A DNA stretch of 64,000 nt from Candidatus Woesearchaeota archaeon (GCA_016926395.1 JAFGOT010000014.1:32058-96057); one strand, 5' to 3'. Counted from the stretch's first letter, positions 2,796-11,841 are shown. Program-made: numbers and translations. Notes: generated from the letters alone by a model not told the origin.

Positions 2796-2821
2796 TGTAA
2801 TACTTGTAAAATCAGAGGAGA

Positions 2822-2829
2822 TTTATAAA
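2822..2829 (-). promoter_or_regulatory. TATA box of serS (likely leaderless transcript)
   Basis: TTTATAAA about 27 nt upstream of the ATG, typical archaeal spacing. Confidence 0.55.
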
Positions 2830-2849
2830 TATGGGGGTTTGAATGCTTT

Positions 2850-3338
2850 TTATTGTTCGTATATGTTGAATTCTATTGAGCTTGTTATGAAGCTTATTCT
2901 TGTTATTATCAATGAATATTCTTTATTCTCTATTTTGAATGTTGTTGAATCTCCCACATAAACTTCGCTAAAATTTTTTTCTAGATTGAAGTTTATTTTC
3001 GCTTGTTGATTAACATTAACATCAATAAGTCCCAATATGAATTTTCCATTAAATAGTGTTTTGCTATTGCCTTTTGTTATGATTCATGGTTCGTTGTTTG
3101 GGACTCTTAGTTCACTTATTTGTTTAATTTCTTTTTCTTCAGTTATATTTTCTTCTAATAGTGTTTGTGTTATGATGTTACCGGTGTTAATTGAGTTGTT
3201 AATTCCATTAATAATTATTTGATTGTTTTCGTTATTTGTTGTTTTTCCTATGTTGCTATTCATTAATCCTATTATTGCTGCTATAAAGAGGATGATTGCT
3301 GTAATAAGACTTATTGTTTTTGTTGTTTTTATTTTCAC
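2850..3338 (-). pseudogene. Membrane-anchored hypothetical protein interrupted by one in-frame TGA (3084-3086)
   Basis: ORFs 3084..3338 and 2850..3035 are in the same frame. The codons between them are open (IITKGNSKTLFNGKFI). N-terminal TM/signal helix. Confidence 0.7.
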
Positions 3339-3357
3339 TTTTGTTTTTTCCTATTCT

Positions 3358-3660
3358 TTATTTTTTACTTAATGCCGAAAGTAACCAAATAAGTCCTAAT
3401 CCTATTAATGCTCCTTGACTAACTTTTAACTTTGCAGATTGTTCTGCTAATTCTCGTTGCATGTTGTTGTTCATCTGAACGTATTTTACTCGTTCGTTTC
3501 TTTCTTGTTCTAGTTGTTGGTTCGCTTTATGCGCTTCTTGGTCGCTAGTTAAAAGAATTTTTAGCAGTTCTGGTTGGTTTTTTAGTTCGTCAATAACTTT
3601 TTGAGGGTCTTTCTCAAAATGTTCCATTAATTGTTTTCTTAATTCATTTGTTAATGTCAT
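3358..3660 (-). CDS. Coiled-coil protein with C-terminal hydrophobic anchor
   Basis: Q/E-rich helix followed by GALIGLGLIWLLSAL. Confidence 0.7.
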   Translation of the reverse strand: MTLTNELRKQLMEHFEKDPQKVIDELKNQPELLKILLTSDQEAHKANQQLEQERNERVKYVQMNNNMQRELAEQSAKLKVSQGALIGLGLIWLLSALSKK

Positions 3661-3887
3661 ATTTGATATATTTGTTTATTATTTTATAAATTTTTCTGTT
3701 TATGTTTATAAATAAATTAAAATTTGAGAATGAATTGGGTAAATTGAGAAAATTTTCAGGACACCTTTTTTGGTGTTTAATGGGCGTGTCTGGTGTAATG
3801 TTCGTGGTAGTTTAATTAAGCTGAGCTGTTGGCTAAAAGTCCATCTCTAATCTCATTCTATCGAAACGATATTAATGCTTAACTAAT

Positions 3888-4007
3888 TTATTTTGTTTTA
3901 TTTTTAGTTCCTGGAGTTTTTCGCTTTGGTTCGTATCTTTTTTCGTGTTCTTGTTTACTTTGTCTTTTTCGATCTCGAGGACCTTTTTTTGTTAAATCAT
4001 CTGGCAT
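3888..4007 (-). CDS. 39-aa basic small protein missing from the ORF track (MPDDLTKKGPRDRKRQSKQEHEKRYEPKRKTPGTKNKTK)
   Basis: Read by hand. GGTGA Shine-Dalgarno just upstream of the ATG. N-terminus recalls DUF3606-type proteins. Confidence 0.6.
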   Translation of the reverse strand: MPDDLTKKGPRDRKRQSKQEHEKRYEPKRKTPGTKNKTK

Positions 4008-4132
4008 TTTTTATCACCAGTTTATTTTGGTCATTTTTTTGATTTAAACTTTATTCTTGTTTTAGGATATTTTTCATTGGTTATCCCAAACTCTAAATAA
4101 AGTATTTAAATTGGATTTTCCCTATTTTATTT

Positions 4133-5482
4133 ATGGATGTTCCTTTAGTGCAAATAAGTCCTGACTTAATTTCTTTTGACCCTCAAAATCCCCGGTCAGA
4201 ATCTTCTGAGAAAATAGAGACGGATTATAAATTCACTCAACTTAAAAAATCAATTGAGTTATTTGGTGTTTTTGTTCCTCTAATTGTAAGACAAGTAAAA
4301 TCAAAAACAAAACCTTATCGTTTGGTTGATGGAGAAAGACGTTTGAGAGCTGCTTTAGCATGTAACAAGCCCTTTGTTCCTGTTCACATAATTGATGGTA
4401 ATGGTGAGCGGGCTAAGGTTTTGGCTTATCAAATACATATGAACAGAAAAGATTGGACCAAATTAGCGGAACTAAAATCAATAAAGGATATTGTTCATGA
4501 AATAAAACTTAAGAATGATGATGATGATTTTGTTCGTAAAGAGCTTTGTGATAAAACCAGCATGGACTTAGCTCATGCTACTGATATTTTAACAATTTTG
4601 AAGTATGATTCTGAAACTATAAAAAAAGTTGAAGAGGGTTTAATTTATAGAAGTTATTTTATAGAATTAGAACGTTATTTTATACCTGCTTTAAAAACTG
4701 ATTTTCTTTCTTTGTATAACCATTATGGAGAAAAGAGATTAAGGAAGATTTTATCAAAAAAAGCTGAAGAAATAAAATTGGGAAAAACAAGTTTTTTAAG
4801 AAATAATTTTATTAAACCTTATTTTGAAAATATTATTGACAAGCCTAAGTTGAGGCGTGTTATTAAAGATTTTCTTGATAATCCTGATCGTGATTTACGA
4901 GATAGTGTTAAGAAATTGGAACGTCGATCAAGTAAAGTTAAGAAAGCTTCTAAGAAAAAGTCTTCTAAACAAAGACCGGTTGTTGATGTTATTGAGGTTC
5001 CAGATGAAATTGACCACTTAGTCAAGCTTTTCGATATTGAGAAGCTCTTAATTTCTTCTAATGTTTTTGATTCTATATTTAATAATTTAAAACAAGCCAT
5101 TGTCGAATTTGAAAGGAGAACAGGATATTTAGTGACTAATGAAATAAAACTTCAAAATGTTATTTACACTGTTTTAAGATCTTTGTTTAAGTCAACAGAG
5201 TTTGAGAATCCTACTGGTAAAGTTTGTTCTACAAGCAGTAAAGTAGATTTTATTTTAAAAAAGCATGGCATTGTAATAGAGATTAAGTATGTTAGAGATC
5301 GTCGTCATGCTAAAAATATTCATGATGAATTAGCTATTGATTATGCCAGATATAGGCTTTCTCCTGATTGTAATAAAATAATTAATTATGTTTATGACCC
5401 AAATAATTTTATTACCAATCCTGATTTGACTGTTTCGGAATTGAAAAAGTCTCTTCCGGAAGCTAATCATTATGTTCAGTAG
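4133..5482 (+). CDS. ParB/Srx-like domain fused to a C-terminal PD-(D/E)xK restriction-endonuclease-like domain (REase_DpnII-MboI-like)
   Basis: LKKSIELFGVFVPLIVR..YRLVDGERRLRAA (ParB); KVDFILKKHGIVIEIK...ELAIDYARY..SPDC.KII.YVYDP (REase). Confidence 0.75.
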   Translation: MDVPLVQISPDLISFDPQNPRSESSEKIETDYKFTQLKKSIELFGVFVPLIVRQVKSKTKPYRLVDGERRLRAALACNKPFVPVHIIDGNGERAKVLAYQIHMNRKDWTKLAELKSIKDIVHEIKLKNDDDDFVRKELCDKTSMDLAHATDILTILKYDSETIKKVEEGLIYRSYFIELERYFIPALKTDFLSLYNHYGEKRLRKILSKKAEEIKLGKTSFLRNNFIKPYFENIIDKPKLRRVIKDFLDNPDRDLRDSVKKLERRSSKVKKASKKKSSKQRPVVDVIEVPDEIDHLVKLFDIEKLLISSNVFDSIFNNLKQAIVEFERRTGYLVTNEIKLQNVIYTVLRSLFKSTEFENPTGKVCSTSSKVDFILKKHGIVIEIKYVRDRRHAKNIHDELAIDYARYRLSPDCNKIINYVYDPNNFITNPDLTVSELKKSLPEANHYVQ

Positions 5483-5490
5483 TTATTAAA

Positions 5491-6621
5491 ATGAAAAACA
5501 TTCTTTTAGTCGAACCTGATTTTCCTGTTTCTAAGAAAAGTAAGAATCATTCTAATTTTCTTCCTATTGGTCTACTTAAATTAGCATCTTATCATCGTAA
5601 GCAAGGCAATAAAGCAAAACTTATTCGAGGTTTGAAAAAAGCACATTTTACGCCTGATAGAATTTTGATAACTTCTTTGTTTACTTATTGGTCTGATTAT
5701 GTTAGAGATGCAGTGCAATTTTACAAACAAGCTTATCCTTCTGCTAAAGTCGAAGTTGGTGGAATTTATGCAAGTTTAATGCCGAAGCATTGCAAATATT
5801 TTACTGGTTGCGATAAAGTTGTTGTTGGTCAATTAAAAATGGCAGATAAGTGTAAACCTGCTTATGATTTAGTTAATGTTGATTATCAAATTATTCATGG
5901 GATGAGAGGTTGTATTAGACAGTGTTCTTTTTGTGGTATTTGGAGACTTGAAAAGAACTCTTTCAAAACTGCAGAAGAAATTAAAAAAGAGATTTGTTTT
6001 AATAAGTTAGTTTTTTATGATAATAATATGTTAGTTAATCCTCATATTGAAGAAATTCTTGAAATGTTAGCAACAACAACTTATAATGGTAAAGTTCTTA
6101 ATTGTGAGTGTCAAAGTGGTTTTGATGGTAGAATTCTTGCCGAAAAACCTCATTTGGCAGAATTATTAAAAAAAGCTAGATTTAAAGATATTCGTTTGGC
6201 TTGGGATTGGGGTGTTAAAACTTATCCGGTTGTTGAAAAGTGGTTAACTATTCTTGATAATGCTGGTTTTAGTAGAAAATCGGTTTTCTTATTTATGATT
6301 TATAATTGGGATTTTAAATTTGAAGAAATGGAAGAAAAAAGAAAAAAATGCTATGAATGGGGGGTGCAAATTGCTGATTGTAGGTTTAGACCCCTTAATC
6401 AATTATTTGACAGATATAATGGTCGTATAAAACAAACAAATATTGATTATTTTATTCATAAATATTGGACCGATTATCAAGTAAAGAGATTTAGAAAGAA
6501 TGTTCGTTTGCAAAATATTTGTATACGTTATAACATTCCTATTGAAAATTATCGAAAGGAGTTGGAGGGTACTCGCTCTTCTTCAAAAAAATTAGTTGAA
6601 TTTGGTTCTATGGTTTCTTAG
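5491..6621 (+). CDS. Radical SAM protein with cobalamin-binding-like N-terminal domain
   Basis: ILLVEP..PIGLLKLAS..KVEVGGIYASLMP N-terminal domain; RGCIRQCSFC CX3CX2C motif; FYDNN. Confidence 0.85.
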   Translation: MKNILLVEPDFPVSKKSKNHSNFLPIGLLKLASYHRKQGNKAKLIRGLKKAHFTPDRILITSLFTYWSDYVRDAVQFYKQAYPSAKVEVGGIYASLMPKHCKYFTGCDKVVVGQLKMADKCKPAYDLVNVDYQIIHGMRGCIRQCSFCGIWRLEKNSFKTAEEIKKEICFNKLVFYDNNMLVNPHIEEILEMLATTTYNGKVLNCECQSGFDGRILAEKPHLAELLKKARFKDIRLAWDWGVKTYPVVEKWLTILDNAGFSRKSVFLFMIYNWDFKFEEMEEKRKKCYEWGVQIADCRFRPLNQLFDRYNGRIKQTNIDYFIHKYWTDYQVKRFRKNVRLQNICIRYNIPIENYRKELEGTRSSSKKLVEFGSMVS

Positions 6622-6679
6622 AGTGTGCACTGGTCAGTTGATGATCCATTTTTTAAGTTTTAATCTTACTATCTTTGTT

Positions 6680-6886
6680 ATGAGTCGATATATTATTCTC
6701 GAAATTGGTAAGTCCGCATATACTGAGTTTAAGAAAAAATCAGGAGATTTTGAAGAAACTTGTGATGCTATTCTTGTTGATGATTTGGATGCTGATTCAA
6801 AAGAAGATGCTTATAATCAAATGTTTTCAAAAGAAGAGCATTCTGATAAAGATTTTGACCAATTAGTTGTTCTTGAGGTTGTTTGA
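6680..6886 (+). CDS. Small acidic hypothetical protein (68 aa; start revised to ATG 6680)
   Basis: D/E-rich MSRYIILEIG...; the upstream part of the track ORF overlaps the radical SAM gene end. Confidence 0.6.
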   Translation: MSRYIILEIGKSAYTEFKKKSGDFEETCDAILVDDLDADSKEDAYNQMFSKEEHSDKDFDQLVVLEVV

Positions 6887-6928
6887 TATTCTAAACATTT
6901 ATTAACTAACGAGTCAAATTTTTATTTT

Positions 6929-7698
6929 ATGGATTTGCATATGTTTCAGCAATCAGTCTTGGATTCATATACTAGTAATTCTCAAAAAGCTCGAGTATTA
7001 ACGGAAAATTGGTTTGCTTCTCAAATGTACTGTCCTTGTTGTTTGAAACCTAAGATTTCTGTTTACAATAATAATAAAAAAGTAAGTGACTTTTTTTGTG
7101 ATTCTTGTAGAAATGATTTTCAATTAAAAAGTTCTAAAAACCGTTCGGGCGTAAAGTTTTAGATGGGGAGTATAATACTATGATTTCTGCTGTTGATTCG
7201 GGTTCATCTCCTAGCTTTTTTATTCTTCACTACTCTTCCGAGGATTGGGTGGTTAAATCACTTTCTTTGATTCCTAAATTTTTTGTAACACATTCGATGA
7301 TTGAAAAACGAAAACCTTTGTCTTCTACTGCTAGAAGAGCGGGTTGGACTGGTTGTAATTTTTTGTTAGACAAACTTCCTTTAGAGGGGAATATTCCTAT
7401 TGTTATTAACGAGAAAATTCAAGATAAAACAAAAGTTAATGCACTTTGGAATAAAATGTTTTTTATGAATTCTAAGAGACCTTCTTTTAGGGGTTGGACT
7501 TCTGATGTGCTGAAAGTTGTTCAAGAACAAGATTCGTCCTTTTCTTTATCCGACATTTATTTGTATGACTCCTACTTTAAAGAATTACATCCTGAAAATA
7601 ATAATATTAGAGCGAAGATAAGGCAACAGTTACAAATTCTTAGAGATAATAAAATTATTAGATTTAAAGGAAATGGTATTTATGAGAAATTAAAATAA
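6929..7698 (+). pseudogene. dpnI: DpnI / Dam-replacing-family methyl-directed endonuclease, split by a frameshift at A5 (7136-7140)
   Basis: YTSNSQKARVLTENW, CPCC...FCDSC, LKS, RKPLSSTARRAGWTGCN, KIRQQLQILRD match DpnI. The -1 frame from 7141 reads PFGRKVLDGEYNTMIS and joins both ORFs. Confidence 0.9.
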
Positions 7699-7703
7699 TG
7701 TTT

Positions 7704-8297
7704 TTAATCAAATAATCCTTTTATTCCGCTAACAATATCTTTACCAACATCTGAAATTGTGTCTACAACATTGTTTACAACTTGTTTTACACTTTCGACA
7801 GCTTCTTTTACTTCTTCAACAATAAAATTTCTGACTATTTCTGTTAGTTCAATTTGTTGAGAAAAATGTTTTTTGATAAGAATTGGTTTTTCCATTATTA
7901 TTATGTCGCCTTCCAGAGTTGCATAAGTTTTCTTCATAGTAATAAGGTTTTTGGCAACTTCACTGCTCATGTGCCAATCTAATCTTTGACTAACTTTTAT
8001 TATTGTCATATCCCGAGGTCTTAATGTTGTTTTACCTATTTCTCCTTCTGAACGATATTCATTAAAACTCACTGAATAGTCAACTCTTTTAGCAGATATT
8101 CTAAAAATGCTTGGATTGTAAACATAAACATCAGCATGAATTGTGAAGCCATCTAGAGAAACGTCTGTTATGTCTGTTATTTCCGTATTCTTAACTTCTA
8201 TATTTTTTATTGATTGAATGTAAAATATTCCAAAACTAATTAAGATAATAGTTATTGGTATTAAAATACTAAAAATTATTGTTGTTGTTTTACTCAT
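7704..8297 (-). CDS. Membrane-anchored LEA14/WHy-like domain protein (start likely 8297)
   Basis: N-terminal TM; ADVYVYNPSIFRISAKRVDYSV beta pattern; ATG overlaps the upstream stop. Confidence 0.6.
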   Translation of the reverse strand: MSKTTTIIFSILIPITIILISFGIFYIQSIKNIEVKNTEITDITDVSLDGFTIHADVYVYNPSIFRISAKRVDYSVSFNEYRSEGEIGKTTLRPRDMTIIKVSQRLDWHMSSEVAKNLITMKKTYATLEGDIIIMEKPILIKKHFSQQIELTEIVRNFIVEEVKEAVESVKQVVNNVVDTISDVGKDIVSGIKGLFD

Positions 8298-9036
8298 CGG
8301 ACATAAATCTCCAACCACTATTTTTTGGCTCTAGTTCTGCGTATAGTTCTTGTCCCCACTCTTGGATATCCGTAAATGCTAAACCCGCATTTTTGTAAAC
8401 CCAGTCAATTTCTTCAGAGATTTTTTTTACTGCTTGTTTATCATCTGTTTTTATTGCTGATTCATAACTATTGGAGAAACCATTATTTGTGAAATTTATC
8501 GAACCTAGAAATGCGTGTTCATTATCTATGACATAAACTTTAGAATGAATTAAATATCCTCGCCCTCCATTTTCATCTTCTCTACTACTAAATATTTTTA
8601 GTTTGAATATTGGTTTGTATTTGTATTCGTTTGTTCTCATAGTAAAGAATATTATTGCTGATATTATTGCTCCTAAAACTAGAATTAATAATGCTGGTGC
8701 TGCGAAAGATAAAAATAACATAAACATACCTATTCCTGAGCTTATCCAGAATCCGTTTTTTCGAGTTTGAACTTTTTGGTCATGGATGATTTGTTCTTGT
8801 TCTATAATTTCTGTAGGATCAAAACTATTATCTCTGTTATTTGCAAGATTATCAGATGTTATTAATGTAATTTTAACCCCTTTTTTGTGGAGTTTAATTA
8901 ATTCTCTTATATAATTTGTCGACAAATATGGAGAAACTATTTTAACTTCTTTTTTGGCTCTTTGTATTACATTGAGGCAATGAGAACCCGCGTCTCGACC
9001 TAAGAAGATTGAACAGTTGGCTTTGTTTATGAACAT
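8290..9036 (-). CDS. Phospholipase D/Nuc-family single-HKD protein with internal TM hairpin
   Basis: IVSPYL and HSKVYVID..AFLGSINFT..G..SYE motifs; hydrophobic insert between them. Confidence 0.85.
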   Translation of the reverse strand: MFINKANCSIFLGRDAGSHCLNVIQRAKKEVKIVSPYLSTNYIRELIKLHKKGVKITLITSDNLANNRDNSFDPTEIIEQEQIIHDQKVQTRKNGFWISSGIGMFMLFLSFAAPALLILVLGAIISAIIFFTMRTNEYKYKPIFKLKIFSSREDENGGRGYLIHSKVYVIDNEHAFLGSINFTNNGFSNSYESAIKTDDKQAVKKISEEIDWVYKNAGLAFTDIQEWGQELYAELEPKNSGWRFMSDE

Positions 9037-9093
9037 ATGTGAACTTTTGACTTTTCCTTATTTAAGGTTTTTGTTCAGAATGGGATAACCCCT

Positions 9094-9588
9094 TTAATAA
9101 TCATCATCGGGGTAGAAGTCATCATCGTCTTGGAATTTGTTTAATCTGAAATTGTTAATCTTTGGGATTATTGGAGGGATTATTGGTGGTAGTGGTTTGT
9201 TAAACGAGCTGTTGAATTTGTTATTAAATCCATCATCATAATCATCATCGAACTGTTTATTTCCAAAATTAGTATTTATTGGTGGGATGTATGGTTTATT
9301 GTATGAGCTGTTAAATGAATCATGTAGATCTCTTCGTCTGTCTTCTTCCATTCTGTCAAACATTTCTTGTTGTTGTATTCTTTGTTCTTCTTTTCTGTCT
9401 AGTTCTCTTTGTCTTGCTTTTTCTTGTTGACCTTTAACTAAATTATCGTATTCTCTGCAGGCTCCTTCCCATTGTTTAATAAAAAAATAACTACCTGCGC
9501 CTGTTCCTGGATGTCTTCCTGGTCCGCTTCTAAGAAGATTTCTTTGATATGGTGTCAAACCATCATCGTCATCATCAAAATAGCTCAT
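9094..9588 (-). CDS. Low-complexity D/N/P-rich hypothetical protein
   Basis: Open 164 codons; two FNSS.NKP..PP..N..NK..DDD repeats. Confidence 0.6.
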   Translation of the reverse strand: MSYFDDDDDGLTPYQRNLLRSGPGRHPGTGAGSYFFIKQWEGACREYDNLVKGQQEKARQRELDRKEEQRIQQQEMFDRMEEDRRRDLHDSFNSSYNKPYIPPINTNFGNKQFDDDYDDGFNNKFNSSFNKPLPPIIPPIIPKINNFRLNKFQDDDDFYPDDDY

Positions 9589-9630
9589 AATAGACCTATT
9601 TGGTTTAGAATTTATAATATTTGTGTCTTT

Positions 9631-11841
9631 TTAAGGCTGATACTTAAGCTCTTTCTTTGTGCCTGAGGCTTTGTTTGCTTTCTTCTTTTTCTCTATTTCT
9701 TTTGAGAAGTCGTGATTTTCATAATCTGGATACTTTGGCTCTTTTGTGCTTAGTCTTAATGCAATTTTTTTTATTGTGGATATTATTATTTTAAGAATAA
9801 TTATAATCATAATTACTAAACTCACAACAGATATTATGGTTGCAACTTCCATTGTTGAATCATTCTCGTCAAGTCCTAAAACTCTAGCAATAAACTTTGT
9901 GACTTTTGCGTTGACTACGTTTGTTGCAACCATTGCCTTTTGAACTGGTGTTAAGTTAACGAGCTTTGTGGTTTCTACTGCCTCAATTACTTGTCGCTCT
10001 CCATAACTATCAGTGTATTCTATTTCTATTACTATGTCATTTTCATTAAAACCAAGATTACTTCCTGCTAATGTAAATTCAAACTGTTTGTTTTCATCAA
10101 AAACAGGAAAATTCCATTCTTGAATAAATAGAGGATGTTTAACTCTAACAATCGCATCCTTAGCCGAAGCAAATGATTCTTTATTTACTTGAATTGTTAA
10201 TGCTTTTTGATCTTTAAATCCTATTGTGTCATCAATGCTAACATTTCCTATACTCAGTTTTGCATTATCAATTGCTTTAAATGTTACATAAATATCTGCG
10301 CTAGTGCCTTTTTTGGTTTGGGTTAAAGTTAATGTTCTAACACCTATTTTCTCAGCACTATAAGTAAATGTAACTTCATCATTTAGGTTTTCGATCTTTT
10401 TACAATTAACATCAAGACAGACACGAAGTGGAAGCTGTGCATCAAGGAAAGGAGAGCAGGTTATTTCAATAGTATCATTAATCATAACTTGACCAGGAGA
10501 AGAACAATAAACTTCAACAGGAATTTTTTGGTCTTCACTGATTAAAAATTGACTCATATAATTCTTGCCATAAATTTCTCCTCTATCAAGAACGGTAACT
10601 TTTGTCGTTGCTGGTCCTCCTTCAACATATGCTGTGAACGGATATGTATAAATCATGTATGGGTCAAGATTAGAGCTTGACTTGATTAAGAAAGGTATTG
10701 TCTTAACCTCATATGGTTCTAAAAAAATAAATTGTGTAAGTGGTCCTTCTTGTTCTATTTCTAAAGTGTTGGCCATCTGAACAAATTCAACAATATAATG
10801 GTTGGCAGTATTTTTAATCTCTAAATAAATAACATCATATGATCCAAAACCAATTGCTTCCTCTTCAGCATAAAGACGAGTCTTTGTAGCTTTATCTTTG
10901 AAAGGTCCTGTTTTTATAACGTCTGTTGCGAATTCTAAACTTCCTGTGTTAACATCGTATGTGTCTTGTTGACCTTTATGAGAATACTTTATGCTATTGC
11001 TTGAACCATCAACATCTTTACGAAGAGAAATGTGACTTGCATCAACATAACCTAACTGTCTATATGTGATATCAAATGGAACCCAACCAACATCGGGGAA
11101 ATAAACTTCAGCCCAACCATGATTGCCCCAAGGATAATCAAACAAATCAGAATCAGTATATGCGACGCCTGAAACGAAACGAGCAGGAACGCCAAGTTCT
11201 CTGTTAAACGAGATGAACAAATTAGTTATTTCATCACAAACACCCCGTCTCTCTTTCATAACCCACGAAGAAGGTTCATTAGCATCGGCAGTTACTGAAC
11301 TAAGATTGTATTGAATGTTATCTTCAACCCAAGTTGCAAGAAAAAACTCAAGCTCAAACAAATCATCGATTCCATTTGCTAGATTACTTGCTTGTTGTCG
11401 GATATCATTATTAGAATCAATACTTTCTGTGAACTCAGTATATTTAGCAACATCATTAGGGATGTCGGTTATTGGAAAAGGTATTTTTTTAGTTATTGGA
11501 GTTCTTGTTCCTTGAGTTTGAATTACAGATTCAATATTAAAACCAATATAGTTCTTAGAATAACCCTCTTCTCTAAATGTTATTTTGTCATCTTCAATTT
11601 TATATGGTGTTGGTTTGAATGCAGAAGAAATAACTTCCTGACGATACGTATTTTGAGGAACTAAATAAAGAGTAGAATCAAAATATTCCATAACAACAGG
11701 AATTTTAAGAGGAATGATGTTGATATCATTTTCAATAGTCTGCTTTAAGGTCATAGACTCATATTGAGTATATTCATTAGCACTTGCTAGAGAAATCAAT
11801 AGTAAGAATATAATAAAAATAAACAAACCTCTTTTCATCAA
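9631..11841 (-). CDS. Secreted, C-terminally anchored transglutaminase-like protein
   Basis: Signal peptide; GVCDEITNLF..LGVPARFVSG, HGWAEVY, WVPFD (Cys-His-Asp triad); C-terminal TM. Confidence 0.85.
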   Translation of the reverse strand: MMKRGLFIFIIFLLLISLASANEYTQYESMTLKQTIENDINIIPLKIPVVMEYFDSTLYLVPQNTYRQEVISSAFKPTPYKIEDDKITFREEGYSKNYIGFNIESVIQTQGTRTPITKKIPFPITDIPNDVAKYTEFTESIDSNNDIRQQASNLANGIDDLFELEFFLATWVEDNIQYNLSSVTADANEPSSWVMKERRGVCDEITNLFISFNRELGVPARFVSGVAYTDSDLFDYPWGNHGWAEVYFPDVGWVPFDITYRQLGYVDASHISLRKDVDGSSNSIKYSHKGQQDTYDVNTGSLEFATDVIKTGPFKDKATKTRLYAEEEAIGFGSYDVIYLEIKNTANHYIVEFVQMANTLEIEQEGPLTQFIFLEPYEVKTIPFLIKSSSNLDPYMIYTYPFTAYVEGGPATTKVTVLDRGEIYGKNYMSQFLISEDQKIPVEVYCSSPGQVMINDTIEITCSPFLDAQLPLRVCLDVNCKKIENLNDEVTFTYSAEKIGVRTLTLTQTKKGTSADIYVTFKAIDNAKLSIGNVSIDDTIGFKDQKALTIQVNKESFASAKDAIVRVKHPLFIQEWNFPVFDENKQFEFTLAGSNLGFNENDIVIEIEYTDSYGERQVIEAVETTKLVNLTPVQKAMVATNVVNAKVTKFIARVLGLDENDSTMEVATIISVVSLVIMIIIILKIIISTIKKIALRLSTKEPKYPDYENHDFSKEIEKKKKANKASGTKKELKYQP

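What the first reader, a model, noticed from the sequence alone, without database searches (positions are those of the whole stretch)
4133..7698. Candidate new DNA modification/restriction system: ParB-REase + cobalamin radical SAM + small acidic protein + DpnI
Seen: four co-oriented genes (the first two only 8 nt apart) with a visibly T-rich coding strand, unlike the A-rich core genes, and no conventional methyltransferase. Established: DpnI cuts G(m6A)TC; cobalamin-dependent radical SAM enzymes typically methylate unactivated C or P; ParB/Srx domains bind or hydrolyse nucleotides and occur in DNA-modification and defence loci. Inference: the radical SAM enzyme could install an unusual self-mark on DNA or a nucleotide, the ParB-REase could restrict unmarked DNA, and DpnI could target Dam-methylated invaders or host DNA.
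Basis: partly seen in the sequence, partly recalled or inferred. Interest (0 to 1): 0.8.

Follow-up and report, generated by a model that had tools for sequence, protein, structure and literature searches.

The report
Radical SAM restriction cassette plus DpnI
A small archaeal genome carries an inserted defence island in which a DNA-clamp-nuclease fusion is paired with a very conserved, unstudied radical SAM enzyme that probably marks the cell's own DNA in a chemically new way, next to a separate, broken DpnI-type restriction module.

Summary
The four co-oriented genes exist as described, with three corrections. The DpnI homologue is split by a frameshift at an A5 run (7136-7140). The "T-rich strand" is not distinctive. 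The small acidic gene belongs with DpnI, not with the radical SAM (rSAM) pair.

The locus is two modules inside a ~6.8 kb island (about 2796-9630) inserted between SerRS and a transglutaminase-like gene.

Module 1 is a ParB CTP-clamp-like protein fused to a PD-(D/E)xK nuclease, plus a B12-domain-type rSAM enzyme.
- 38 of 40 ParB-seeded metagenome loci with room carry the rSAM downstream.
- All 8 ParB-REase relatives with room carry it, 9-33 nt away.

The rSAM is 50-70% identical across archaea and many bacterial phyla. It closes at least seven unrelated restriction-like operons: GHKL, ParB-REase/HEPN, CxC-DndE, DISARM-like, SNF2, HerA and DndB-HEPN. These mostly lack methyltransferases. It also occurs alone in phage contigs. 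The best reading is a self-marking DNA-modification enzyme, which is inferred, not shown.

No PADLOC model and no paper was found.

The parts
2796..9630 (.). Accessory island of about 6.8 kb inserted between SerRS (1521-2795, -) and a transglutaminase-like gene (9631-11841, -)
   Evidence: In same-genus genomes G015 and G128, SerRS and the transglutaminase-like gene are adjacent. In G069, RNase HII abuts SerRS. No convincing flanking att repeats were found.
4133..5482 (+). ParB-REase fusion, 449 aa: ParB NTD plus HTH (residues 1-265, GERRLRA at 67-73), a Lys/Ser-rich disordered linker (266-290) and a PD-(D/E)xK nuclease domain (328-439; D372, E383-x-K385)
   Evidence: Pfam ParB_N and REase_DpnII-MboI. 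NCBIfam parB_part covers residues 7-169. The model has pLDDT 84.8. Foldseek matches CTP/CDP-bound ParB, KorB, Noc and Spo0J at E 5e-10. Alignment A2 shows the C-terminal domain swapped between REase, HEPN-like or none.
5491..6621 (+). Radical SAM enzyme, 376 aa: an N-terminal B12-binding-type Rossmann domain plus a radical SAM barrel. Cluster motif C141-x3-C145-x2-C148. Further invariant residues are C101, C107, C287, C297 and C344
   Evidence: 27 sequences, mean column identity 64%; pLDDT 85; AprD4, MgmA, TsrM, MiaB/RimO, OxsB, CysS, TokK at E 1e-10 to 1e-6. No sequence match in the PDB.
6680..6886 (+). Small acidic protein, 68 aa, partner of DpnI
   Evidence: 22 representatives at 35-65% identity in the hit table and alignment A3. 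It lies directly beside DpnI in L176, L177 and L179, with no ParB or rSAM in those loci. It is absent from all 160 rSAM/ParB loci.
6929..7162 (+). DpnI homologue, N-terminal fragment (profile positions 4-70), ending at a premature stop after the frameshift
   Evidence: Pfam PF06044 at 92 bits. tblastn against intact homologues.
7136..7140 (+). A5 run where the DpnI reading frame shifts (frame +1 to +3)
   Evidence: Frame switch between ...QLKSSK and PFGRKVLDGEY when aligned to the L098 and L086 DpnI proteins. The same truncated product is present in a Logan assembly.
7180..7698 (+). DpnI homologue, C-terminal fragment: catalytic-domain positions 85-182 plus the DpnI_C winged helix
   Evidence: Pfam PF06044 at 99.9 bits and PF17726 at 92.2 bits. 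PADLOC mREase_II at 162 bits.
8290..9036 (-). HKD/PLD-family nuclease-like protein (DrmC/NucT-like), island neighbour. Membership in the cassette is not shown
   Evidence: Pfam PLDc_2 at 73.9 bits, PADLOC DrmC, NCBIfam DrmC/NucT. A related PLD gene lies just upstream of the ParB-REase in L087.
7704..8318 (-). LEA_2-like protein overlapping the PLD gene by 29 nt, island neighbour
   Evidence: weak PF03168 match, below the cut-off.

Best explanation
The locus holds two defence modules in one inserted island.

Module 1 (4133-6621) is a modification-restriction-like pair.
- The radical SAM enzyme is inferred to place a non-methyltransferase chemical mark on the cell's own DNA.
- The ParB-REase is inferred to be a CTP-switch-type DNA clamp (ParB NTD plus HTH) that loads on DNA and delivers its tethered PD-(D/E)xK nuclease to DNA lacking the mark.
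- The rSAM is a constant, horizontally mobile module that different restriction-type machines recruit in place of a methyltransferase. Phages capture it alone to protect their DNA.

Module 2 (6680-7698) is a separate pair: a small acidic protein plus a DpnI-type methyl-directed endonuclease. It is native to this archaeal order and is inactivated here by a frameshift at an A5 run.

Shown: gene structures, domain and fold assignments, obligate ParB-rSAM linkage, partner swapping, phage orphans, island insertion, and the DpnI break.

Inferred: DNA as the substrate, self-marking, clamp-and-cut restriction, and the chemistry.
For: 1. Linkage. 38 of 40 ParB-seeded metagenome loci with at least 3 kb downstream carry an rSAM of at least 40% identity downstream on the same strand. 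All 8 full-length ParB-REase loci with room have it 9-33 nt away.

2. Partner modules. Of 74 full-length rSAM-seeded genome loci, 67 have a recognised partner module and 6 of the other 7 sit at contig edges. The partners are:
- GHKL/MORC-like ATPase plus PP_RS20740-like protein;
- ParB plus REase, HEPN-like domain, or neither;
- SF2 helicase plus DndD/CxC ABC ATPase plus DndE-like protein;
- DrmB plus DrmC plus DrmE-like (DISARM-like);
- SNF2; HerA; DndB-HEPN.

3. Methyltransferases are scarce. They are detectable in only about 22 of 160 loci and in none of the DISARM-like ones. Canonical DISARM and CxC-DndE systems carry methylases or Dnd modification genes (PMC10853773).

4. Phage orphans. 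The rSAM stands alone beside a large terminase (L083) and near a primase and exonuclease (L082). L083 is sister to a cellular CxC-DndE copy with 100% support. Several of the nearest ESM Atlas clusters are mostly viral.

5. Tree. Partner labels change at least 53 times. The window's rSAM sits in a 99%-supported clade mixing ParB-HEPN, GHKL and ParB-REase partners from archaea and Bacteroidota.

6. Conservation. Sequences are 50-70% identical across domains. This fits a universal substrate such as DNA rather than the variable partners.

7. ParB part. It matches CTP-bound ParB, KorB and Noc and keeps GERRxRA. The nuclease keeps D...ExK.

8. Module 2 is separate. DpnI plus the small protein are adjacent in L176, L177 and L179 without ParB or rSAM.

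9. Island.. The true rSAM family was found only in this genome among 401 genomes of the phylum.
Against: - No experiment or modification signal is available. DNA as the substrate is inferred from context only.
- The closest solved folds act on proteins, small molecules or tRNA (MgmA, AprD4, TsrM, MiaB), none on DNA.
- Some loci do carry methyltransferases, including a Dam-type gene directly after the rSAM in the closest genome relative L003. A conventional methyl mark could therefore protect against some of the nucleases.
- The Pfam B12-binding and Radical_SAM hits are below the gathering scores.
- Defence genes usually evolve fast, so the extreme conservation of the rSAM is atypical.
- The DpnII-MboI-type domain shows no pairwise similarity to a bona fide DpnII, so its specificity is unknown.
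Confidence: 0.55

Rival explanations
1. All four genes form one integrated system. The rSAM makes a mark that is neither unmodified nor N6-methyladenine. The ParB-REase cuts unmarked DNA, and DpnI (with its small partner) cuts Dam-methylated invaders. Together they give three-state discrimination.
For: - DpnI homologues lie directly beside ParB-rSAM cassettes in L086, L095, L098 (same order as here: ParB, rSAM, DpnI) and L111.
- Dam-type methyltransferases lie beside others: L003, L035, L036/L160 and L162.
- Only 12 of 401 genomes of the phylum have DpnI above the cut-off, so adjacency in 5 loci is far above random expectation.
- L176 shows the same logic with a conventional enzyme: PF01555 methylase, DpnI, small protein and DpnII in one locus.
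- GATC is the most under-represented 4-bp palindrome in this genome, at O/E 0.57.
Against: - DpnI plus the small protein occur without ParB or rSAM in three relatives.
- The other DpnI-linked cassettes lack the small protein.
- DpnI is broken here.
- Most of the 160 cassettes have no DpnI.
- Defence genes cluster in islands anyway.
- GATC specificity of the ParB-REase is not supported by similarity to DpnII.
Confidence: 0.15
2. The rSAM is the effector, not the marker. On activation by the partner sensor it converts a nucleotide into a toxic or chain-terminating analogue (viperin-like) or destroys a cofactor, which aborts infection.
For: - Radical SAM enzymes are known defence effectors: viperins, and Ophion OpnA (bioRxiv 10.1101/2025.09.30.679545).
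- ParB/Srx domains bind or hydrolyse NTPs.
- High conservation would fit a universal small-molecule substrate.
Against: - The partner operons already carry nucleases (REase, HEPN, PLD) as effectors.
- Phages carry the rSAM alone beside packaging and replication genes.
- The rSAM occupies the slot of modification genes in DISARM-like and CxC-DndE systems.
- There is no fold similarity to viperin among the top hits.
Confidence: 0.12
3. The rSAM modifies or matures a macromolecule other than DNA. It would either post-translationally activate its partner protein or modify tRNA or rRNA.
For: The best structural matches include protein methylases (MgmA), tRNA/protein methylthiotransferases (MiaB, RimO, MtaB) and TsrM. 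MiaB-like genes follow three cassettes.
Against: - The partners are unrelated proteins, while the rSAM stays 50-70% identical and swaps partners often. This argues against a partner-specific substrate.
- Phage orphan copies have no partner.
- The family is sporadic, present in 1 of 401 genomes of the phylum, unlike housekeeping RNA-modification enzymes.
Confidence: 0.1
4. The genes are unrelated neighbours and the rSAM is a metabolic enzyme that happens to lie in an island.
For: Weak Pfam scores. Sources annotate it only as a generic 'Fe-S oxidoreductase'.
Against: Linkage in 38 of 40 and 8 of 8 loci, 9-33 nt gaps or overlaps, and the same-strand terminal position in 67 of 74 loci across many phyla.
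Confidence: 0.02

Closest known systems
CxC-ABC/DndE (PbeABCD-like) and Dnd phosphorothioate modification-restriction systems
   Same: In about 19 of 80 genome loci the same rSAM family closes operons of SF2 helicase plus DndD/CxC-type ABC ATPase plus DndE-like protein. Other loci use DndB (ParB superfamily). As in those systems, a DNA-scanning core is coupled to a swappable modification gene and nucleases (PMC10853773).
   Different: The window has no DndA, C, D or E. The modification slot is filled by a radical SAM enzyme instead of DndA/DndC or cytosine methylases. The chemistry is unknown. The paper does not mention this enzyme.
DISARM (DrmA/B/C/E plus DrmM methylase)
   Same: Eight loci have DrmB-like, DrmC (PLD) and DrmE-like genes followed by the rSAM. 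The window's island also has a DrmC-like PLD gene.
   Different: No methylase was detected in those loci, and the rSAM stands in its place. The window lacks DrmA, DrmB and DrmE.
Dpd 7-deazaguanine DNA modification/restriction system
   Same: A non-methyl DNA modification made by enzymes recruited from other pathways, coupled to ATPase/nuclease restriction genes and spread by horizontal transfer. This comparison rests on general knowledge and on earlier scan notes.
   Different: No DpdA/TGT or preQ0 genes are present. The single rSAM here is of the B12-domain type, not QueE-like. Not tested beyond the domain scans.
DpnI / DpnII GATC cassettes of Streptococcus pneumoniae (Type IIM and Type IIP restriction)
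   Same: The locus has a DpnI homologue with both of its domains and a nuclease domain of the DpnII-MboI Pfam family. Relatives show Dam or DpnI at the same position beside the cassette. DpnI has a small co-transcribed partner here, and the pneumococcal dpnC has a co-transcribed partner gene dpnD; no homology between the two partners was tested.
   Different: DpnI is frameshifted. The REase domain has no detectable pairwise similarity to a true DpnII. No Dam methylase is present in this genome. ParB and rSAM are foreign to the classical cassettes.
Class B (cobalamin-dependent) radical SAM enzymes and their B12-domain relatives (TsrM, MgmA, OxsB, TokK, CysS, AprD4) and MiaB/RimO methylthiotransferases
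   Same: The two-domain fold (Rossmann plus rSAM barrel) and the CxxxCxxC motif.
   Different: About 12-14% identity and no sequence-level hit in the PDB. Five further invariant cysteines are not explained. None of the known members acts on DNA.

Membership tests
Radical SAM superfamily | CxxxCxxC motif for the [4Fe-4S] cluster in a partial TIM barrel | tested here: met
   C141-x3-C145-x2-C148 is invariant in 27 sequences. The barrel fold matches AprD4, TsrM and MiaB at E 1e-10 to 1e-8. Pfam PF04055 scores only 24.2 bits against a 29.5 cut-off.
Class B cobalamin-dependent radical SAM methylases | N-terminal cobalamin-binding Rossmann domain that actually binds cobalamin, and methyl transfer | tested here: inconclusive
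   PF02310 scores 24.1 bits against a 32.1 cut-off. The fold matches TsrM, MgmA, OxsB, TokK and CysS, but AprD4 and MiaB equally well. Cofactor binding and chemistry cannot be tested with these tools.
ParB/Noc/KorB CTP-dependent DNA clamps | ParB N-terminal NTPase domain with the GxxRxxA box plus an adjacent HTH DNA-binding domain | tested here: met
   PF02195 at 41.9 bits, and TIGR00180 at 58.8 bits against a 58.45 cut-off, covering residues 7-169. GERRLRA lies at 67-73. Foldseek E 5e-10 to CDP/CTP-bound ParB, KorB and Noc. CTP binding, loading site and sliding were not tested.
Type II restriction-modification system (DpnII/MboI type) | REase with a cognate DNA methyltransferase in the same locus | tested here: not met
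   The PF18742 REase domain is present at 93.2 bits. No methyltransferase lies in the island, and there is no D12 or C5 methylase in the 82.5%-complete genome. There is no pairwise similarity to a true DpnII.
Type IIM methyl-directed endonuclease DpnI | Intact catalytic domain (PF06044) plus C-terminal winged-helix domain (PF17726) in one polypeptide | tested here: not met
   Both domains are present (92, 99.9 and 92.2 bits), but the ORF is split by a frameshift at 7136-7140. Intact homologues are 256-258 aa.
Dnd / Ssp phosphorothioation systems | DndA/IscS, DndC, DndD and DndE (or SspABCD) genes | tested here: not met
   None were found in the window by Pfam, NCBIfam or PADLOC. DndD/DndE-like and DndB partners occur only in other loci of the rSAM family.
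DISARM | DrmA helicase plus DrmB (DUF1998) plus DrmC plus methylase | tested here: not met
   Only a DrmC-like PLD gene (8290-9036) is present in the window.
Any PADLOC-DB v2 defence system | A model hit for the signature genes | tested here: not met
   The rSAM has no hit. The ParB-REase hits only Aga_Helical-REase models through its nuclease domain. DpnI hits mREase_II.

The most novel reading that the evidence does not exclude
The conserved rSAM family is the first radical SAM (B12-domain-type) enzyme that modifies DNA for self/non-self discrimination. It would install a mark that is neither a conventional N- or C5-methyl group nor phosphorothioate. Many unrelated restriction machines read this mark, and phages steal the gene. 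In ParB cassettes linked to DpnI or Dam, the mark would let a cell attack both unmethylated and Dam-methylated foreign DNA.
Probability: 0.4. Interest if true: 0.9.

Novelty: new variant of a known kind. Interest (0 to 1): 0.75.

Why it matters
If the rSAM enzyme marks DNA, it defines a new chemistry of epigenetic self-marking, alongside methylation, phosphorothioation and 7-deazaguanine.

- The family is widespread: 2341 homologues at E <= 0.001, across archaea, many bacterial phyla and phages.
- It would explain how DISARM-like, CxC-DndE, MORC-like and ParB-nuclease systems that lack methylases avoid self-attack.
- It would provide a new base or backbone modification for biotechnology and for sequencing-based detection.
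- The ParB-nuclease fusions would extend the CTP-clamp paradigm from chromosome segregation to immunity.

Tried and rejected
Neighbourhoods came from the search for related loci and the genome search instead.
- The compositional claim (T-rich strand) is rejected.
- Rfam found nothing in 2800-9700, and only two tRNAs in the whole window.
- No convincing flanking direct repeats or att sites.
- No PDB sequence match for the rSAM.
- Only distant (about 25%) relatives on plasmids.
- My first clustering lumped the GHKL and ParB partners together. Domain probes showed they share only a HEPN-like C-terminal domain in a few members.
- The small acidic protein as part of the rSAM pair is rejected.
- GATC specificity of the ParB-REase from homology to DpnII is rejected as untestable by sequence.
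- GATC depletion is suggestive only, and the controls are small. O/E values are 0.57 for the genome, 0.50 for ParB-REase contigs, 0.77 for same-genus loci without the cassette and 0.48 for relatives with DpnI.
- Nine literature searches (eight by topic plus one for the PP_RS20740 locus tag) and the targeted reads found no description of the family. Krishnan et al. 2020 and Makarova et al. 2011 are not held, so prior mention there cannot be excluded.
- The IQ-TREE run did not finish, so FastTree was used.
- Methyltransferase detection used jackhmmer from four seeds plus motif regexes. It is coarse and could miss divergent methylases.


Full report
**Observation**

The window has four co-oriented open frames on the + strand:
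- 4133-5482, 449 aa;
- 5491-6621, 376 aa, 8 nt after the first;
- 6680-6886, 68 aa, with 18 acidic against 8 basic residues;
- 6929-7698.

Pfam results:
- Gene 1 has ParB_N (residues 7-87, 41.9 bits) and REase_DpnII-MboI (328-439, 93.2 bits).
- Gene 2 has weak B12-binding and Radical_SAM hits, both below the gathering scores.
- The last gene has DpnI and DpnI_C.

PADLOC has no model for the radical SAM (rSAM) protein.

Three points of the first description need correction.

1. The DpnI homologue is split. The N fragment (6929-7162) and the C fragment (7180-7698) lie in different frames. Alignment to intact 256-258 aa homologues places the shift in the A5 run at 7136-7140. The same truncated N fragment is on record from a second (Logan) assembly, so an error of a single assembler is unlikely.
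2. The coding-strand AT skew of the island genes is -0.07 to +0.02. That lies within the spread of the other genes of the window (0.05 +/- 0.11), and GC content does not differ.
3. The small acidic gene is real but belongs to DpnI (see "The DpnI module" below).

**Host and island**

aCPSF1 (836 bits, above the equivalog cut-off) and a family B polymerase show an archaeon. The assembly is 1.02 Mb in 40 contigs at 32% GC and is 82.5% complete.

In same-genus genomes, SerRS is adjacent to the transglutaminase-like gene (G015, G128) or to RNase HII (G069). Window positions of about 2796-9630 are therefore a ~6.8 kb insertion. Besides the four genes, the insertion carries on the opposite strand an HKD/PLD (DrmC/NucT-like) gene, an overlapping LEA_2-like gene and a poly-Asp ORF.

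No att-like repeats were found.

The true rSAM family was found only in this genome among 401 genomes of the phylum, and in none of ten same-genus genomes.

**The rSAM protein**

- It has 2341 homologues at E <= 0.001. The best 120 are 57-80% identical and come from Nanoarchaeia/Woesearchaeota, Bacteroidales and unclassified bacteria.
- An alignment of 27 has 64% mean column identity. The invariant cysteines are C141-x3-C145-x2-C148 and five others: C101, C107, C287, C297 and C344.
- The AlphaFold model (pLDDT 85) matches AprD4, MgmA, TsrM, MiaB/MtaB/RimO, OxsB, CysS and TokK at E 1e-10 to 1e-6. There is no sequence-level PDB hit.

The fold is therefore a B12-domain-type Rossmann domain plus an rSAM barrel. 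Neither cobalamin use nor the reaction can be read from the sequence.

**Co-occurrence, forward direction**

Eighty genome loci seeded with the rSAM span Bathyarchaeota, Methanobacteriota, Thermoplasmatota, Asgard, DPANN, Bacteroidota, Chloroflexota, Bacillota, CPR, Omnitrophota and others.

The rSAM is almost always the last gene of a co-directional operon. Of 74 full-length copies, 67 have a recognised partner set, and 6 of the remaining 7 sit at a contig edge.

The partner sets, annotated by Pfam and NCBIfam and by domain probes, are:
- GHKL/MORC-like ATPase plus a PP_RS20740-like protein (about 20 loci);
- ParB with a C-terminal REase, a HEPN-like domain, or neither;
- SF2 helicase plus DndD/CxC-type ABC ATPase plus DndE-like protein (about 19 loci);
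- DrmB-like plus DrmC plus DrmE-like (8 loci);
- SNF2 plus ParB-like proteins;
- a HerA-like set;
- DndB-HEPN.

**Co-occurrence, reverse direction**

Eighty metagenome loci were seeded with the ParB family.
- Of 40 with at least 3 kb downstream, 38 carry an rSAM of at least 40% identity downstream on the same strand.
- All 8 full-length ParB-REase relatives with any room have it 9-33 nt away.

**What the rSAM does**

Four lines of evidence favour a DNA self-marking role.

1. The partner operons are restriction-like and already contain nucleases (REase, HEPN, PLD). They mostly lack methyltransferases: I detected one in about 22 of 160 loci and none in the DISARM-like loci. The method was coarse.
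2. In DISARM-like and CxC-DndE contexts the rSAM stands where canonical systems have a methylase or DndA/DndC. The Aravind-group analysis of Dnd systems describes exactly such swapping of modification genes on a DndD/CxC-DndE core, but does not mention this enzyme (PMC10853773).
3. Phage contigs carry the rSAM alone: beside the large terminase (L083), near a primase and exonuclease (L082), or with only the DndE-like gene (L081). In the tree, L083 is sister to a cellular CxC-DndE copy with 100% support. Several of the nearest ESM Atlas clusters are mostly viral. This mirrors phage orphan methyltransferases.
4. The tree needs at least 53 partner changes. The window's copy sits in a 99%-supported clade mixing ParB-HEPN, GHKL and ParB-REase partners from archaea and Bacteroidota. 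A substrate common to all contexts fits 50-70% identity better than the variable partners do. DNA is the obvious candidate.

All of this is inference from context. No modification has been observed.

**The ParB-REase**

- The model (pLDDT 84.8) has a ParB NTD plus a helical HTH region. This part matches CDP/CTP-bound ParB, KorB, Noc and Spo0J at E 5e-10.
- GERRLRA is kept at residues 67-73.
- A disordered Lys/Ser-rich linker (266-290) joins it to an alpha/beta nuclease domain with D372 and E383-x-K385.
- Relatives keep the ParB part and swap the C-terminus for a HEPN-like domain (Rx4H) or drop it.

The likely mechanism is an NTP-gated DNA clamp that carries a nuclease. This is inferred.

The nuclease domain has no pairwise similarity to a true DpnII, so GATC specificity cannot be claimed.

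**The DpnI module**

- The 68-aa protein has 22 representative relatives at 35-65% identity in the hit table (alignment A3).
- In the phylum it occurs in 5 of 400 other genomes.
- In three of these it is directly beside an intact DpnI, with no ParB or rSAM: L176, L177 and L179. The C-fragment is 68-72% identical and the N-fragment 61-66% identical to the window's.
- It is absent from all 160 rSAM/ParB loci.

The small protein plus DpnI is therefore a separate two-gene module of this archaeal order.

Even so, DpnI homologues lie directly beside ParB-rSAM cassettes in L086, L095, L098 (same order as here) and L111. Dam-type methylases lie beside others: L003, L035, L036/L160 and L162. Only 12 of 401 phylum genomes have DpnI above the cut-off.

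L176 has a PF01555 methylase, DpnI, the small protein and a true DpnII in one locus. If the usual specificities hold, that combination requires a protective mark other than Gm6ATC.

GATC is the most depleted 4-bp palindrome in this genome, at O/E 0.57. The other values are 0.50 in ParB-REase contigs, 0.77 in same-genus loci without the cassette and 0.48 in relatives with DpnI. These controls are small.

A functional link between the cassette and GATC methylation state is therefore possible (about 15%) but not shown.

**Comparison and novelty**

The cassette works like a modification-dependent restriction system. It shares partner modules with Dnd/CxC-DndE and DISARM. The window meets the defining gene sets of none of them (see the membership table).

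I found no paper describing the family. This rests on nine searches (eight by topic plus one for the PP_RS20740 locus tag) and several targeted reads. Two relevant papers are not held.

Earlier follow-ups of this scan reached the same reading for this rSAM family on three other genomes. I re-derived the linkage, the partner diversity and the phage orphans independently here.

I rate the finding as a new variant of a known kind. It is a restriction-modification-like defence with a radical SAM enzyme in the modification slot. If the predicted DNA chemistry is confirmed, the upside is high.

Noticed in passing
L176 (G240:C17) about 6481-9066: One locus in a related archaeon has a PF01555 DNA methylase, an intact DpnI, the small acidic protein and a true DpnII endonuclease (PF04556) in a row. 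Under their usual specificities these enzymes should be mutually exclusive.
   Followed up: partly
window 7704-9036 (- strand); L087 3876-4691: An HKD/PLD (DrmC/NucT-like) gene overlaps a LEA_2-like gene by 29 nt in the same island. A related PLD gene sits immediately upstream of the ParB-REase in L087.
   Followed up: partly
window 4079-4088 and 9081-9090: A perfect 10-nt inverted repeat (GGTTATCCCA / TGGGATAACC) brackets the stretch from just before the ParB-REase to just after the PLD gene. Chance is not excluded in 7 kb of AT-rich DNA.
   Followed up: no
G000 contig C12, L165 1381-3023: A CcrM-like beta-class adenine methylase lies convergent with a second DrmC/NucT-like PLD protein. This may be a PLD-type restriction-modification pair elsewhere in the genome.
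   Followed up: no
L018 8274-9590, and L021 and L027 downstream of the rSAM: A MiaB-like methylthiotransferase gene (UPF0004 plus Radical_SAM plus TRAM) lies downstream of the rSAM in three loci of different or unresolved phyla (directly after it in L018; two and four genes away in L027 and L021).
   Followed up: no
L199 (Marinitoga camini virus 1, KP836355.1) 4001-5083: A cultured temperate virus encodes a 33%-identical relative of the rSAM, convergent with HerA- and NurA-like genes. This could be an experimentally tractable relative.
   Followed up: partly
whole genome G000: GATC is the most under-represented 4-bp palindrome (1829 observed against 3185 expected, O/E 0.57), and no D12 Dam methylase was found.
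   Followed up: partly
window 3084-3660 (-) and 9094-9588 (-): These island ORFs have no family match: two small ORFs upstream of the cassette and a poly-Asp ORF at the far end. The 472-nt T-rich gap at 3661-4132 has no Rfam hit.
   Followed up: partly
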